Part shown: positions 30,000 through 31,039 of the stretch, piece by piece
How positions within the stretch are numbered: the stretch's first letter is position 1
How the letters are laid out: each line of letters opens with the position of its first letter
IMG/VR virus record: IMGVR_UViG_3300043754_000129
Location: 64,001 to 128,000 of that record
DNA: 64,000 bases
Strand: one strand, 5' to 3'
Source: a virus
Taxonomy: Duplodnaviria > Caudoviricetes
Notes under the pieces: generated by a model
What the model was told of the DNA's origin: nothing
Database searches by the model: none
What the model saw: only the letters and a program-made list of their open reading frames with translations
Translations under genes and position numbers: made by a program

Positions 30000-30129
30000 T
30001 GGTCCCGCAGGGGTGGGCTCGAACCACCGGCCTCTCCCTTGTTACCCACAGCTGCCAAGAAGGCAGCCGCCGGAGTCGAACCGGCACAGCTTTTGGCTGG
30101 GAGCGCTCTACCAACTGAGCTACCACGGA
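30000..30129 (-). ncRNA. Anticodon-less double-elbow tRNA-like RNA #1
   Basis: TCCGTGG-TA-GCTC/GAGC D arm; stem CTCCC/GGGAG encloses an AGC/GCT hairpin, T arm GCCGG-TTCGACT-CCGGC, hairpin GGCTGCC-TTCTT-GGCAGCT and mini D arm GT-GGGTA-AC; then T arm GGTGG-TTCGAGC-CCACC, acceptor with 1-nt bulge, ACCA. Confidence 0.8.
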
Positions 30130-30137
30130 AACTGATC

Positions 30138-30214
30138 TGGCGCGGTGTACGGGACTCGAACCCGTGACCCCCGGCGTGACAGGCCGGTGCGCTAACCAGC
30201 TGCGCTAACACCGC
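30138..30214 (-). tRNA. tRNA-Asp(GUC)
   Basis: Anticodon arm CCGGC-CTGTCAC-GCCGG; CCA encoded. Confidence 0.95.
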
Positions 30215-30219
30215 AAAAC

Positions 30220-30438
30220 TTAGACAGGCACCACTTCGACAGAATCGGCGATGTGACCCGTCATGGAAACGAAACGAGGAATGTCGGCAACGGCTTCTTC
30301 TTCGGTCGGATACTGCAATGCGCGTTTAGCGCCATCCAGACCAAAGACCACACCGGGGACGATTCCCTTTTCTTCCGGTTGGAAGTATTCACGGCAAGCT
30401 GCACCGTTACGAAACATGCGTGCGACCAGTACAAACAT
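30220..30438 (-). CDS. Small hypothetical protein inside the tRNA array
   Basis: 72 aa with a good RBS (AAGGGTGG); fills the only long gap between RNA genes here. Confidence 0.6.
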   Translation of the reverse strand: MFVLVARMFRNGAACREYFQPEEKGIVPGVVFGLDGAKRALQYPTEEEAVADIPRFVSMTGHIADSVEVVPV

Positions 30439-30500
30439 AGTACCACCCTTAAAGTTAATTCAGGGGTAGCGACACTGTCACTATTCCTCAATCAACTTCT

Positions 30501-30629
30501 TGGTTCCGCTGGAGTGGATTTGAACCACCGACCTCCCTCTTGTAATCCAACACCGTCCCCATTGATGGGGGGACGCCCGGATTCGAACCGGGGAACGAGG
30601 GCGCTCTAACCAGGCTGAGCTACCACGGA
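30501..30629 (-). ncRNA. Anticodon-less double-elbow tRNA-like RNA #2
   Basis: Stem CCCTC/GAGGG encloses T arm CCCGG-TTCGAAT-CCGGG, hairpin CGTCCCC-CCATCAAT-GGGGACG and reduced D arm GTG-TTGGAT-TAC. The outer body has full D and T arms, a 1-nt-bulged acceptor and ACCA. Confidence 0.8.
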
Positions 30630-30651
30630 ATCTGACTTACTGCAAAACTGA

Positions 30652-30727
30652 TGGCGTCCCGTGCGGGATTCGAACCCGCGTACCCACCGTGAAAGGGTGG
30701 TGTCCTAGGCCTCTAGACGAACGAGAC
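30652..30727 (-). tRNA. tRNA-Glu(UUC)
   Basis: Anticodon arm CCACC-CTTTCAC-GGTGG; CCA encoded. Confidence 0.95.
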
Positions 30728-30748
30728 AAAACTGCTATTTCTGAAACT

Positions 30749-30886
30749 TGGTTCCCATAGGGCTGGATTTGAACCAGCGACCTCCGCCATGTGGTGGACC
30801 CCATTATCACGCACCCGCCGGGTGCGCAAAGGCCGGGTCCTCGCCTGGCTGGTTGGCGGCGCTCTACCAGACTGAGCTACCTGGGA
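30749..30886 (-). ncRNA. Anticodon-less tRNA-like RNA #3 with about 66-nt structured insert
   Basis: Outer tRNA body (D arm, CCGCC/GGCGG stem, T arm, 2-nt-bulged acceptor, ACCA). The insert has a GGACCC/GGGTCC stem and a GCGCACCC-GGC-GGGTGCGT hairpin, with no second TTCG loop. Confidence 0.75.
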
Positions 30887-30905
30887 ATCAGACTACAACG
30901 AAAAA

Positions 30906-31039
30906 TGGTACCCGAAGGGTTGGATTCGAACCAACGACCGCCCCGATGTGTATACCAACTCCACCACTTCGCCAGACGGCGAAGCCCGGATTCGAACCGG
31001 GGGAACGCGGGGTGCTCTGGACCGCTGAGCTACCTGGGT
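30906..31039 (-). ncRNA. Anticodon-less double-elbow tRNA-like RNA #4
   Basis: Stem CCCCG/CGGGG encloses T arm CCCGG-TTCGAAT-CCGGG, 7-bp hairpin CTTCGCC-GTCT-GGCGAAG, TG linker and D arm GTG-GAGTTGGTATA-CAC. The outer body has a 2-nt-bulged acceptor and ACCA. Confidence 0.85.

What the first reader, a model, noticed from the sequence alone, without database searches (positions are those of the whole stretch)
30000..31039. Family of anticodon-less 'double-elbow' tRNA-like RNAs: two tRNA bodies fused through one shared anticodon stem
Seen in sequence: elements at 30000-30129, 30501-30629 and 30906-31039 (minus strand) each begin and end like a tRNA (acceptor, D arm, T arm, ACCA). Their anticodon loop is replaced by a variable linker, a T arm (TTCGA loop), a 7-bp acceptor-like hairpin closed by a short loop, and a D-like arm with GG. 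Element #4 is clearest: CCCCG | CGTTCC | CCCGG-TTCGAAT-CCGGG | CTTCGCC-GTCT-GGCGAAG | TG | GTG-GAGTTGGTATA-CAC | AT | CGGGG. The stems differ in sequence between copies while keeping pairing (CTCCC/GGGAG, CCCTC/GAGGG, CCCCG/CGGGG; GGCTGCC/GGCAGCT, CGTCCCC/GGGGACG, CTTCGCC/GGCGAAG), which argues for selection on structure. Established: the T-acceptor-D permuted order is that of the tRNA-mimic domain of bacterial YrlA Y RNAs, but those lack a second, CCA-bearing tRNA body. Inference: these RNAs cannot decode and may be decoys for elbow- or CCA-recognising host factors (tRNA-targeting defence nucleases, tRNA-modifying toxins, RNase P, RelA), or bivalent scaffolds. I know of no described RNA class with this architecture.
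Basis: partly seen in the sequence, partly recalled or inferred. Interest (0 to 1): 0.95.

Follow-up and report, generated by a model that had tools for sequence, protein, structure and literature searches.

The report
Two-headed tRNA-like RNAs in jumbo phages
A jumbo phage encodes conserved ~130-nt RNAs in which a normal tRNA body carries a second, circularly permuted tRNA body where its anticodon loop should be; no searched paper or RNA library describes this fold, and cultured phages have it too, so it can be tested.

Summary
Three minus-strand genes in the tRNA cluster (30000-30129, 30501-30629, 30906-31039) have a tRNA acceptor, D arm, T arm and encoded ACCA. A 5-bp anticodon stem closes a second T arm (UUCGA loop), a 7-bp hairpin and a GG-containing segment.

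I found 12 distinct members: this phage, four related 310-315 kb IMG/VR phages, two soil contigs, and cultured Burkholderia phage FLC9 and Xanthomonas phage RTH11. On nine of them, 99.4% of structure cells pair and 19 of 36 pairs show compensatory changes (0 of 500 shuffles). When the inner body of the 30906-31039 type is un-permuted in silico, ARAGORN calls it a complete tRNA.

They are probably not spliced tRNA-Val genes. Most members cannot rebuild a loop with U33 and a purine at 37, and the phage has no EndA or RtcB. NAC at the anticodon position and discriminator A73 are almost invariant, so "anticodon-less" is only partly right. The set matches E. coli ValRS identity elements as I recall them.

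My best reading is a non-decoding, two-domain tRNA mimic matured like a tRNA. Its function (decoy or adaptor) is inferred, not shown. Expression is untested. The scan noted other non-decoding tRNA-shaped phage RNAs on other DNA.

The parts
30906..31039 (-). E4: 134-nt two-headed tRNA-like RNA gene, the clearest member
   Evidence: R1 scores 140.7 bits. Segmentation verified. Orthologues lie in L007, L166, L253, L254 and L257.
30985..31001 (-). E4 inner T arm: CCCGG, loop UUCGAAU, CCGGG
   Evidence: 5/5 paired. The loop matches the T-loop consensus. The stem is nearly invariant in the family.
30967..30984 (-). E4 inner acceptor-like 7-bp hairpin closed by a GUCU loop
   Evidence: 6 of 7 pairs show compensatory changes across the family.
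30948..30964 (-). E4 inner D-like arm: GUG, an 11-nt loop with GG, CAC. The CAC is also the NAC at the anticodon position
   Evidence: The stem is invariant in the close set. It is replaced by GCG/CGC in FLC9 and GCUC/GAGC in RTH11.
31008..31012 (-). E4 shared anticodon stem, 5' strand (CCCCG)
   Evidence: Pairs with 30941-30945. The stem is 5/5 paired in all 12 members, and 3 of 5 pairs covary.
30941..30945 (-). E4 shared anticodon stem, 3' strand (CGGGG)
   Evidence: As for the 5' strand.
30501..30629 (-). E2: 129-nt member. Inner T arm 30576-30592, inner hairpin 30554-30575, minimal D-like stem GUG/UAC
   Evidence: R1 scores 115.7 bits. The minimum-free-energy fold reproduces the proposed arms. 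Segmentation verified.
30000..30129 (-). E1: 130-nt member. Longer linker, inner T arm 30069-30085, inner hairpin 30050-30068, GG segment but no D-like stem, ends GGGUAACAA
   Evidence: R1 scores 77.2 bits. Its orthologue L257:2241-2369 has a covarying hairpin.
30749..30886 (-). E3: sibling on the same outer body. Its insert is a hairpin followed by ACCA (an internal acceptor-end look-alike), with no second T arm
   Evidence: R1 scores 72.1 bits through the outer body. Orthologues L257:1854-1967 and L284:181-293 have a covarying 6-bp stem.
29912..31569 (-). The tRNA gene cluster that holds the four elements among 7 canonical tRNA genes (Thr, Ile, Asn, Ser, Glu, Asp, Gln)
   Evidence: The same order recurs in soil contig L257.

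Best explanation
These are genes for non-decoding tRNA mimics with two L-shaped domains.

**Outer domain.** It is a full class-I tRNA core. It has a D arm with G18G19, a 5-nt variable loop, a T arm and an encoded ACCA. It sits among tRNA genes with the same short spacers. I infer that it is cut out by RNase P and 3' trimming, like a tRNA.

**Inner domain.** The 5-bp anticodon stem does not close a 7-nt loop. It opens into a circularly permuted tRNA top half. In order, this has a variable-loop-like linker, a T arm, an acceptor-like hairpin closed by a loop, and a U8/N9-like spacer. A D-like arm, or just a GG segment, follows. The same 5-bp helix serves as anticodon stem for both bodies.

**Shown here.** The helices, their covariation, the T-loop and GG conservation, and the distribution.

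**Inferred.**
- The inner T loop and GG form a second tRNA elbow.
- The insert leaves the stem where the U-turn would be. The five bases NAC+2 could then stay stacked on the 3' strand as in a tRNA.
- A35, C36 and A73 are retained (the ValRS identity set in E. coli, from my own knowledge). Host ValRS probably still recognises, and perhaps charges, the outer body.
- The bulged acceptor stem and the bulky inner domain keep the RNA off the ribosome.
- The second elbow and closed minihelix bind a host factor that recognises the tRNA elbow or acceptor arm. The RNA would act as a sponge or adaptor during infection. A tRNA-directed defence protein or a tRNA-processing enzyme is the most plausible target.
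For: **Structure is under selection.**
- 99.4% of cells pair, 19 of 36 pairs have compensatory changes, and 0 of 500 shuffles reach this.
- Twelve distinct members keep every helix while the inner hairpin takes 12 different sequences.
- Window and L257 coding DNA are only 69% identical, and a neighbouring ORF is 66% identical at the protein level.

**The inner body looks like a tRNA.**
- The inner loop is always TTC[A/G]A and a GG always follows the hairpin.
- The un-permuted inner bodies of E4, L007a, L257_T4 and RTH11_2 are called tRNAs by ARAGORN.

**A canonical anticodon loop cannot be rebuilt.** Only E1, its orthologue and E2 have U33 and A37. The others have A33 or C33, or U37 or C37.

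**No phage-encoded splicing enzymes of the usual kinds.** There is no EndA, RtcB or TROVE gene.

**Identity-like positions are kept.** NAC is kept in 18 of 19 distinct insert-bearing members and A73 in 17 of 19, while position 34 and the neighbouring positions vary.

**The same phages encode other tRNA-shaped RNAs that cannot decode.** One has a 6-nt loop and another has a long hairpin in place of the anticodon arm.

**A shared signature.** All members of this clade carry an acceptor-stem bulge that the neighbouring canonical tRNAs lack.
Against: - There is no expression or processing data. The four RNA libraries laid on the region show only canonical tRNA pieces, probably from other organisms.
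- ARAGORN with introns allowed reads Val AAC, UAC and CAC, and the phage has no other tRNA-Val. E1 and E2 would give perfect 7-nt loops.
- The phage encodes an RNA ligase, so an unknown cut-and-join route cannot be excluded.
- The ValRS link rests on three positions and on E. coli identity rules that I recalled and did not test here. The body sequence itself is no closer to Val than to Ile: the best E. coli match of the E2 3' half is tRNA-Ile.
- RTH11_1 has AAA and discriminator C, so Val identity is not universal in the wider class.
- A stoichiometric decoy against catalytic enzymes would be weak.
- No partner protein was identified.
Confidence: 0.5

Rival explanations
1. They are intron-containing tRNA-Val genes (AAC, UAC, CAC). 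The 50-55 nt insert is removed by an unknown protein-dependent route and the exons are joined, for instance by the phage RNA ligase. This would give the phage its only valine tRNAs.
For: - ARAGORN with introns calls Val(AAC), Val(UAC) and Val(CAC), with the insert directly after the 5' strand of the anticodon stem.
- No other tRNA-Val is in the genome.
- E1 and E2 end in GUAACAA and AUUACAA, which are good 7-nt loops.
- The phage has an RNA ligase (PHA02142 OB fold plus PF09414, phrog_968) at window 56783-58129.
Against: - E4 and all its orthologues, FLC9, RTH11 and the hairpin-type siblings would give A33 or C33 and/or a pyrimidine at 37.
- There is no bulge-helix-bulge motif, no EndA and no RtcB.
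- The insert is far too small for a group I intron, and Rfam finds no intron or ribozyme.
- RNase P or RNase Z acting on the inner minihelix would only open its loop, not excise it (inference).
- A34 in a Val tRNA is not a bacterial pattern (my own knowledge).
- The insert is conserved at sequence level like a working T loop.
- The irregular acceptor stem is conserved.
Confidence: 0.17
2. The tRNA body is only a processing and stability chassis and the insert is the cargo. The inner minihelix loop is cut by RNase P or 3' processing. This would give a two-piece RNA with two free acceptor-like ends, or release a small RNA that acts elsewhere.
For: - The same outer body carries at least four unrelated inserts: two double-elbow types, a hairpin plus ACCA, and a long hairpin plus CCAACCA.
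- Inner hairpin loops vary from 4 to 17 nt. This is what one would expect if the loop is a spacer.
- The inner module equals the junction of two tandem tRNA genes, which is a natural RNase P context. The Rfam YrlA model hits such junctions.
Against: - Tetraloop-closed members (GUCU, GUAU, UUCG) are poor candidates for RNase P cleavage (inference).
- No conserved RCCA follows the inner 3' strand in the double-elbow type.
- No data on RNA ends exist.
Confidence: 0.15
3. They are decaying by-products of tandem tRNA rearrangement, or of a small selfish insert that targets anticodon loops, and have no function of their own.
For: - One orthologue of E3 (L257:1854-1967) has the 7-nt ACCACUC on both sides of its insert, like a target-site duplication.
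- Many unrelated viral tRNA genes carry 55-80 nt inserts.
Against: - Compensatory changes hold in every helix across phages whose proteins are only 35-67% identical.
- Inserts occur only in this one scaffold family, never in the neighbouring canonical tRNAs.
- The inner hairpins of paralogues share no sequence, so spread was not recent.
Confidence: 0.05
4. They are valine-charged carriers for a non-ribosomal reaction or a sensor of charging state. The second body docks the RNA on a phage or host enzyme.
For: A35, C36 and A73 are retained while U33 and R37 are lost. An encoded CCA is present in most members.
Against: - No aminoacyl-tRNA-dependent transferase or aaRS was found: no class-I synthetase core and no CCA-adding enzyme in the genome.
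- The idea is pure inference. RTH11 members lack A73.
Confidence: 0.08

Closest known systems
YrlA-type bacterial Y RNAs (Rfam RF02553; Chen et al. 2014, PMC4201824; bioRxiv 10.1101/312249)
   Same: Both have a permuted tRNA-like module in the order T arm, acceptor-like stem closed by a loop, D arm. Both are non-decoding tRNA mimics. Per my recollection, some YrlA RNAs are also encoded by phages.
   Different: In YrlA the 5' and 3' ends form a Ro60-binding helix and the gene sits next to rsr. Here the ends form a complete second tRNA body with ACCA. The genome has no TROVE gene. The Rfam model stays far below its cut-off and hits only junctions between neighbouring genes.
Valine-accepting tRNA-like structures at the 3' end of tymovirus RNAs (Rfam RF00233)
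   Same: A viral RNA that keeps ValRS anticodon-type determinants and an ACCA end without being a decoding tRNA (from established knowledge). The idea that valylation identity is kept for a non-decoding purpose is the same.
   Different: The tymovirus structure is the 3' end of a eukaryotic RNA-virus genome with a pseudoknotted acceptor arm and a single L shape. No Rfam hit falls on these elements. The elements here are free-standing genes in a DNA phage and have two bodies.
Intron-containing and permuted tRNA genes of archaea and red algae (reviews PMC4090602, PMC4033280)
   Same: Extra sequence interrupts the anticodon region. The inner body has the 3'-half-then-5'-half order of a permuted tRNA gene.
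   Different: Those depend on a bulge-helix-bulge motif, a splicing endonuclease and RtcB, and they yield a canonical anticodon loop. None of the three is met here.
Engineered 'tRNA scaffold' RNAs, in which the anticodon arm is replaced by a cargo RNA (my own knowledge)
   Same: The cargo is inserted on the anticodon stem of a tRNA body so that the cell processes and stabilises it like a tRNA. The family here also shows interchangeable inserts on one body.
   Different: Those are a laboratory design, not a natural family. Here the cargo is itself a tRNA top half or an acceptor-end look-alike.
Phage T4 stable RNAs species 1 and 2, encoded in the T4 tRNA cluster (my own knowledge, not checked here)
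   Same: Small stable non-tRNA RNAs co-transcribed and co-processed with phage tRNAs, with no function known to me.
   Different: No sequence or structural comparison was made here. I know of no report that they contain two tRNA bodies.

Membership tests
Canonical tRNA (Rfam RF00005) | Cloverleaf with a 7-nt anticodon loop (U33, purine 37) that scores above the family cut-off | tested here: not met
   Nothing at gathering score on E1-E4, and default ARAGORN finds none. With permissive filters only partial hits of 21-26 bits appear. In most members the loop cannot be rebuilt with U33 and R37.
Canonical tRNA (Rfam RF00005) | Acceptor stem, D arm with GG, T arm with the UUCRA loop, 3' CCA | tested here: met
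   However, the acceptor stem has 1-3 extra nt on its 3' strand in all members of this clade.
YrlA / bacterial Y RNA (RF02553) | Permuted tRNA-like module: T arm, closed acceptor-like stem, D arm | tested here: met
   E4, E2, FLC9_1 and RTH11_2. The un-permuted inner body is called a tRNA.
YrlA / bacterial Y RNA (RF02553) | Score above the Rfam cut-off (69 bits), which includes the Ro60-binding terminal helix | tested here: not met
   The best hits are 34.7, 28 and 19.8 bits. All span two neighbouring genes, not the inner module.
YrlA / bacterial Y RNA (RF02553) | Genomic link to a Ro60 (TROVE) gene | tested here: not met
   No PF05731 match in the 323,678-bp genome, while the control genomes were positive. 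The host genome is unknown.
Protein-spliced tRNA intron (archaeal/eukaryal type) | Bulge-helix-bulge motif at both junctions, and excision that restores a canonical loop | tested here: not met
   Reading the junctions by eye shows no 3-4-3 motif. The restored loops would carry A33 or C33, or Y37, in most members.
Protein-spliced tRNA intron (archaeal/eukaryal type) | Splicing endonuclease and RtcB-type ligase available | tested here: inconclusive
   The phage has no PF01974 and no PF01139. It does have a different RNA ligase. The host's enzymes are unknown.
Group I intron in a tRNA gene | Self-splicing core of about 200 nt or more (P1-P9) | tested here: not met
   The inserts are 50-75 nt, and no intron or ribozyme family matches even at E up to 10.
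Tymovirus-type valine tRNA-like structure (RF00233) | Match to the family model; 3'-terminal position in a viral RNA genome | tested here: not met
   The only weak hit (21.3 bits) lies on the canonical tRNA-Glu. These are internal genes of a DNA phage.
Tymovirus-type valine tRNA-like structure (RF00233) | Aminoacylation with valine | not testable with these tools
   Only the retained A35, C36 and A73 are seen.
tmRNA | tRNA-like domain plus a tag reading frame | tested here: not met
   ARAGORN finds no tmRNA. The Rfam permuted-tmRNA hits reach only 19-20 bits against a cut-off of 47.

The most novel reading that the evidence does not exclude
Nucleus-forming jumbo phages of Burkholderia, Xanthomonas, Ralstonia and uncultured soil hosts carry a dedicated class of bivalent tRNA mimics. 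The outer body is matured and recognised, perhaps valylated, like a tRNA. The second elbow or acceptor look-alike captures a host tRNA-binding factor. The RNAs would thus act as an RNA-based host-takeover or anti-defence tool, with interchangeable 'heads' on one chassis.
Probability: 0.25. Interest if true: 0.9.

Novelty: new variant of a known kind. Interest (0 to 1): 0.75.

Why it matters
tRNA mimicry is a recurring way for viruses and cells to borrow tRNA-handling machinery. All the natural mimics I know of have a single L-shaped body.

An RNA with two tRNA bodies on one shared helix would be a new fold. It is conserved with compensatory changes across phages whose proteins have diverged to 35-67% identity. 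It would give structural biology a natural "tRNA dimer". It would also give phage biology a candidate RNA effector in the nucleus-forming jumbo phages, whose RNA biology is poorly known.

The elements are unannotated in the record of one cultured phage, Burkholderia phage FLC9. They also occur in cultured Xanthomonas phage RTH11, and a hairpin-type relative occurs in Ralstonia phage RP12. The questions of expression, splicing, charging and binding partners are therefore directly testable.

The finding also warns annotators that intron-tolerant tRNA finders will call these genes tRNA-Val.

Tried and rejected
- **RNA-seq.** Two DNA runs hold most of the stretch. Four rhizosphere RNA libraries hold 8-11% of its words. 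Laid on the region, they show only pieces of canonical tRNAs and chimeric joints from other organisms. Nothing spans an element. This gives no evidence on expression or splicing.
- **Single-sequence folding.** Z-scores are unremarkable (+0.06 to -1.41). Only E2 reproduces the full proposed fold as its minimum-energy structure. The support comes from comparison between sequences, not from folding energy.
- **megablast and blastn against 50,697 phage records.** These find only generic tRNA similarity, or nothing.
- **PhuZ as a probe for relatives in IMG/VR.** It found none.
- **Broad DNA patterns.** A scan of bacterial and archaeal genomes found no family member.
- **Val origin of the body by sequence similarity.** Rejected: the best E. 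coli match of the E2 3' half is tRNA-Ile. 'Val' therefore rests only on A35, C36 and A73.
- **Sigma-70 promoter scan.** Nothing appears on the coding strand. This may simply reflect a phage that uses its own RNA polymerases (my inference).
- **YrlA membership, group I intron, BHB intron, tmRNA.** All rejected; see the membership tests.
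Full report
**Setting**

The window is bases 64001-128000 of a 323,678-bp IMG/VR virus record. 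It encodes a PhuZ-type tubulin at 34782-36068 on the minus strand (Pfam Tubulin plus TubZ_C_2). I therefore take it to be a nucleus-forming (chimallivirus-like) jumbo phage. Its closest cultured relative by PhuZ is Burkholderia phage FLC9, at 38% identity.

A minus-strand tRNA cluster lies at 29912-31569. Default ARAGORN and Rfam find seven canonical tRNAs there and leave four ~130-nt gaps.

**The observation**

The three stated elements read exactly as described. I call them E1 (30000-30129), E2 (30501-30629) and E4 (30906-31039).

- Each starts with a 7-nt acceptor strand, UA, and the D arm (GCUC, a loop with GG, GAGC).
- Each ends with a 5-nt variable loop, a T arm, the acceptor 3' strand, A and CCA.
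- Between these, a 5-bp anticodon stem encloses a linker, a second T arm with a UUCGA loop, a 7-bp hairpin and a GG-containing segment.

A fourth sibling, E3 (30749-30886), has the same outer body but a hairpin-type insert.

A descriptor of the outer body plus a long insert hits the window four times and never in 100 shuffles. Single-sequence folding is not informative. Z-scores run from +0.06 to -1.41, and only E2 folds as proposed at minimum energy.

**Relatives**

Pattern scans and covariance model R1 (built from alignment A3) found family members in these places:

- Four related IMG/VR jumbo phages of 310-315 kb. CheckV estimates three as 98-100% complete, and two have terminal repeats. 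The fourth record is a 61-kb fragment. Each carries one double-elbow element and one hairpin-type element.
- Soil contig L257, which is syntenic with the window and holds orthologues of E4, E1 and E3.
- Soil contig L284.
- Cultured Burkholderia phage FLC9: two double-elbow elements and one hairpin type, none annotated in the record.
- Cultured Xanthomonas phage RTH11: two double-elbow elements. One has an inner body with a full canonical D arm.
- Ralstonia phage RP12: one hairpin-type element.

No further copies exist in the window's own genome. One genome from each of 185,579 bacterial and archaeal species gave no family member. Ralstonia phage RSF1, Xanthomonas phage LucasX and Pseudomonas phage D6 gave no insert-bearing hit.

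**Structure and selection**

On nine double-elbow sequences aligned to the model (A4), 99.4% of cells form standard pairs. Nineteen of 36 pairs change on both sides. None of 500 shuffles reaches any of the five measures. Sliding the partners by 1-3 columns drops pairing to 32-50%.

| Helix | Pairs with compensatory change |
|---|---|
| Inner hairpin | 6 of 7 |
| Acceptor stem | 5 of 7 |
| Outer T stem | 4 of 5 |
| Shared anticodon stem | 3 of 5 |
| Inner T stem | nearly invariant |

This alignment was fitted to the model and so leans towards its structure. As a check, I segmented 12 distinct members by hand and verified each against the DNA.

- All helices hold. The anticodon stem is 5/5 in all 12.
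- The inner hairpin takes 12 different sequences.
- The inner loop is always TTC[A/G]A.
- A GG always follows the hairpin.
- The 3-bp D-like stem never varies within the close set. It is GCG/CGC in FLC9 and GCUC/GAGC in RTH11, which is compensatory support.
- E1, its orthologue, L284_3, FLC9_3 and RTH11_1 have only the GG segment.

Divergence is large. Window and L257 coding DNA are 69% identical, and a neighbouring ORF is 66% identical as protein. Proteins shared with the L007 clade are 35-67% identical.

In E4-type members the connectors of the inner body match those of a tRNA. There is a 5-6 nt variable-loop-like linker before the T arm, UG after the acceptor strand, a D arm, and then one or two bases before the stem. 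I un-permuted the inner body in silico and closed it with a dummy 7-nt loop. ARAGORN then calls a complete tRNA for E4, L007a, L257_T4 and RTH11_2, but not for E2, E1 or FLC9_1. So "two tRNA bodies sharing one anticodon stem" is accurate for E4. E2 and E1 are a reduced form of it.

**Intron or mimic?**

It places the insert directly after the 5' strand of the stem, and the genome has no other tRNA-Val. This is the main rival.

Against it:

- Only E1, its orthologue and E2 would regain U33 and A37. E4 and all its orthologues have A33. The hairpin types have C33 and often U37 or C37. FLC9 and RTH11 members are also non-canonical.
- I see no bulge-helix-bulge motif.
- The phage has no EndA, RtcB or TROVE gene.
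- The inserts are too small for group I introns, and no ribozyme family matches.
- The insert is conserved like a working T arm.
- The same phages encode other tRNA-shaped RNAs that cannot decode. One has a 6-nt anticodon loop, and another has a long hairpin in place of the anticodon arm.

For it:

- E1 and E2 would give perfect loops.
- The phage encodes an RNA ligase at 56783-58129.

I put splicing at about 0.17.

**What is kept at the anticodon position**

NAC plus two bases lies immediately 5' of the 3' strand of the stem in 18 of 19 distinct insert-bearing members. The exception is RTH11_1. Discriminator A73 is present in 17 of 19. Position 34 and the positions around NAC vary. In FLC9_1 the D-like stem (GCG/CGC) and the NAC (in ACAAACUA) are separate. 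NAC is therefore not just a D-stem strand.

A35, C36 and A73 are the main ValRS identity elements in E. coli. That is my own knowledge and was not tested here. I infer that the outer body is still read by ValRS.

The body sequence is not specifically Val-like. The best E. coli match of the E2 3' half is tRNA-Ile.

All members of this clade also carry 1-3 extra bases on the 3' strand of the acceptor stem, which the neighbouring canonical tRNAs lack. I suspect this is a family signature that keeps them out of translation. That too is inference.

**Sibling inserts**

The hairpin-type inserts are E3, L257:1854-1967, L284:181-293, the second elements of L007, L166, L253 and L254, L284:32-159, FLC9 129085-129202 and RP12. 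All are a helix followed by one base and CCA, which looks like an internal acceptor end. Both insert kinds thus imitate the acceptor half of a tRNA.

**Comparison with known families**

The permuted T-acceptor-D module is that of YrlA Y RNAs (PMC4201824). Membership fails on the model score, the terminal Ro60-binding helix and the link to rsr.

Six searches of the paper library (8.1 million PMC papers and 0.36 million preprints) returned no RNA with two tRNA bodies on one anticodon stem. One preprint describes three new bacterial tRNA-mimic families: skipping-rope, DUF2693-FD and salivarius-1. From its abstract and outline, these are single L-shaped RNAs with different connectivity.

Notes from this scan on other genomes report further non-decoding tRNA-shaped phage RNAs, including one with two T arms. 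I did not test those.

**Verdict**

This is a real, conserved and previously unannotated RNA family with a new two-domain tRNA-like architecture. It is most likely non-decoding. Function, expression and processing remain to be shown, and cultured phages make that straightforward.

Noticed in passing
window 30749-30886 (-): E3 has the same outer body as the double-elbow RNAs. Its insert is GGCGA, a 6-bp stem (GGACCC/GGGUCC, covarying with GGAGGC/GCCUCC in L284) and then ACCAC. This is a helix followed by A-CCA, like an internal acceptor end. The orthologue in L257 has ACCACUC on both sides of the insert.
   Followed up: partly
L345 (genome 238515-238593, outside the window); also L253: A tRNA-like gene with the same kind of bulged acceptor stem but a 5-bp anticodon stem and a 6-nt loop (UCGAAU). 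ARAGORN calls it 'tRNA-??? (cgaa)'. Contigs in four rhizosphere RNA libraries carry a close variant with UUGAAU (joint 30532/30860).
   Followed up: partly
L007 9118-9198; genome 238313-238391 (L349): tRNA-Glu-like bodies whose anticodon arm is replaced by a long hairpin with no 7-nt loop. These are further non-decoding tRNA look-alikes in the same phage group.
   Followed up: no
L257 1740-1819: An insert-free member of the scaffold family with an 8-nt loop, UUGCCACU. It may show what the body looked like before inserts arose.
   Followed up: no
window 31166-31290 (-); genome about 238210-238290: ORF-free stretches inside the tRNA clusters with a T-arm-like hairpin (GGUGG, UUAAAGU, CCAUC here; GUGG, CUCGAAA, CCAC in the second cluster) and long hairpins. 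These may be more tRNA-derived RNAs.
   Followed up: no
L199 3730-3866 (IMGVR_UViG_3300017658_000249, 52 kb): An unrelated small viral contig has a tRNA whose anticodon stem continues into the stem of a complete permuted tRNA (variable loop, T arm, short acceptor hairpin, full D arm). A 7-nt bulge, UGUCAGA, sits between the two stems. This is an independent 'double tRNA'.
   Followed up: partly
L006, L008-L011, L013-L017, L019, L022, L026 (animal-gut-type IMG/VR contigs): About a dozen viral contigs share a mini tRNA-like gene of about 60 nt. It has an acceptor stem, D arm and T arm but no anticodon arm at all.
   Followed up: no
L151, L152, L158, L159, L174, L182, L209, L222, L223, L235, L240; also L157, L193, L243, L246: Many IMG/VR tRNA genes carry 55-80 nt inserts in the anticodon loop. 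One large group reads CUUAUA plus insert (tRNA-Ile UAU with the insert after position 37); one of its contigs (L158) is labelled as a giant-virus MAG. L157 reads UUUCAA plus insert and may be a UCA suppressor.
   Followed up: no
window 56783-58129 (-): An RNA ligase gene: PHA02142 OB-fold domain plus PF09414, phrog_968 at E 5e-88. It is a candidate RNA repair or joining enzyme of the phage.
   Followed up: partly
window 29776-29830 (-); L257 about 2480-2520; genome about 238060-238100: After each tRNA cluster comes a conserved GC hairpin with a UUCG loop followed by UUU(U)AUGCCGUCAA. It is likely the cluster's terminator, and the simple terminator scan missed it. The spacers between the tRNA genes share a GUAGUA/UUGUAG motif.
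   Followed up: no
L350 about 3360-3500 (-) and 3090-3270 (-); L284 436-600 and 870-1050: FLC9 and contig L284 share two features. One is a ~150-nt ORF-free stretch closed by a long inverted repeat (UAUUCAGCGCG ... CGCGCUGAAUA). The other is a ~190-nt RNA with a long acceptor-like stem, a class-II-type D arm and a T arm around a large insert.
   Followed up: no
window 30220-30438 (-): A 72-aa ORF sits inside the tRNA cluster and starts MFVLVA...NGA...EYF. ORFs with a similar N-terminus lie next to the tRNA-like clusters of L253 and L007. It has no Pfam or PHROG match.
   Followed up: partly
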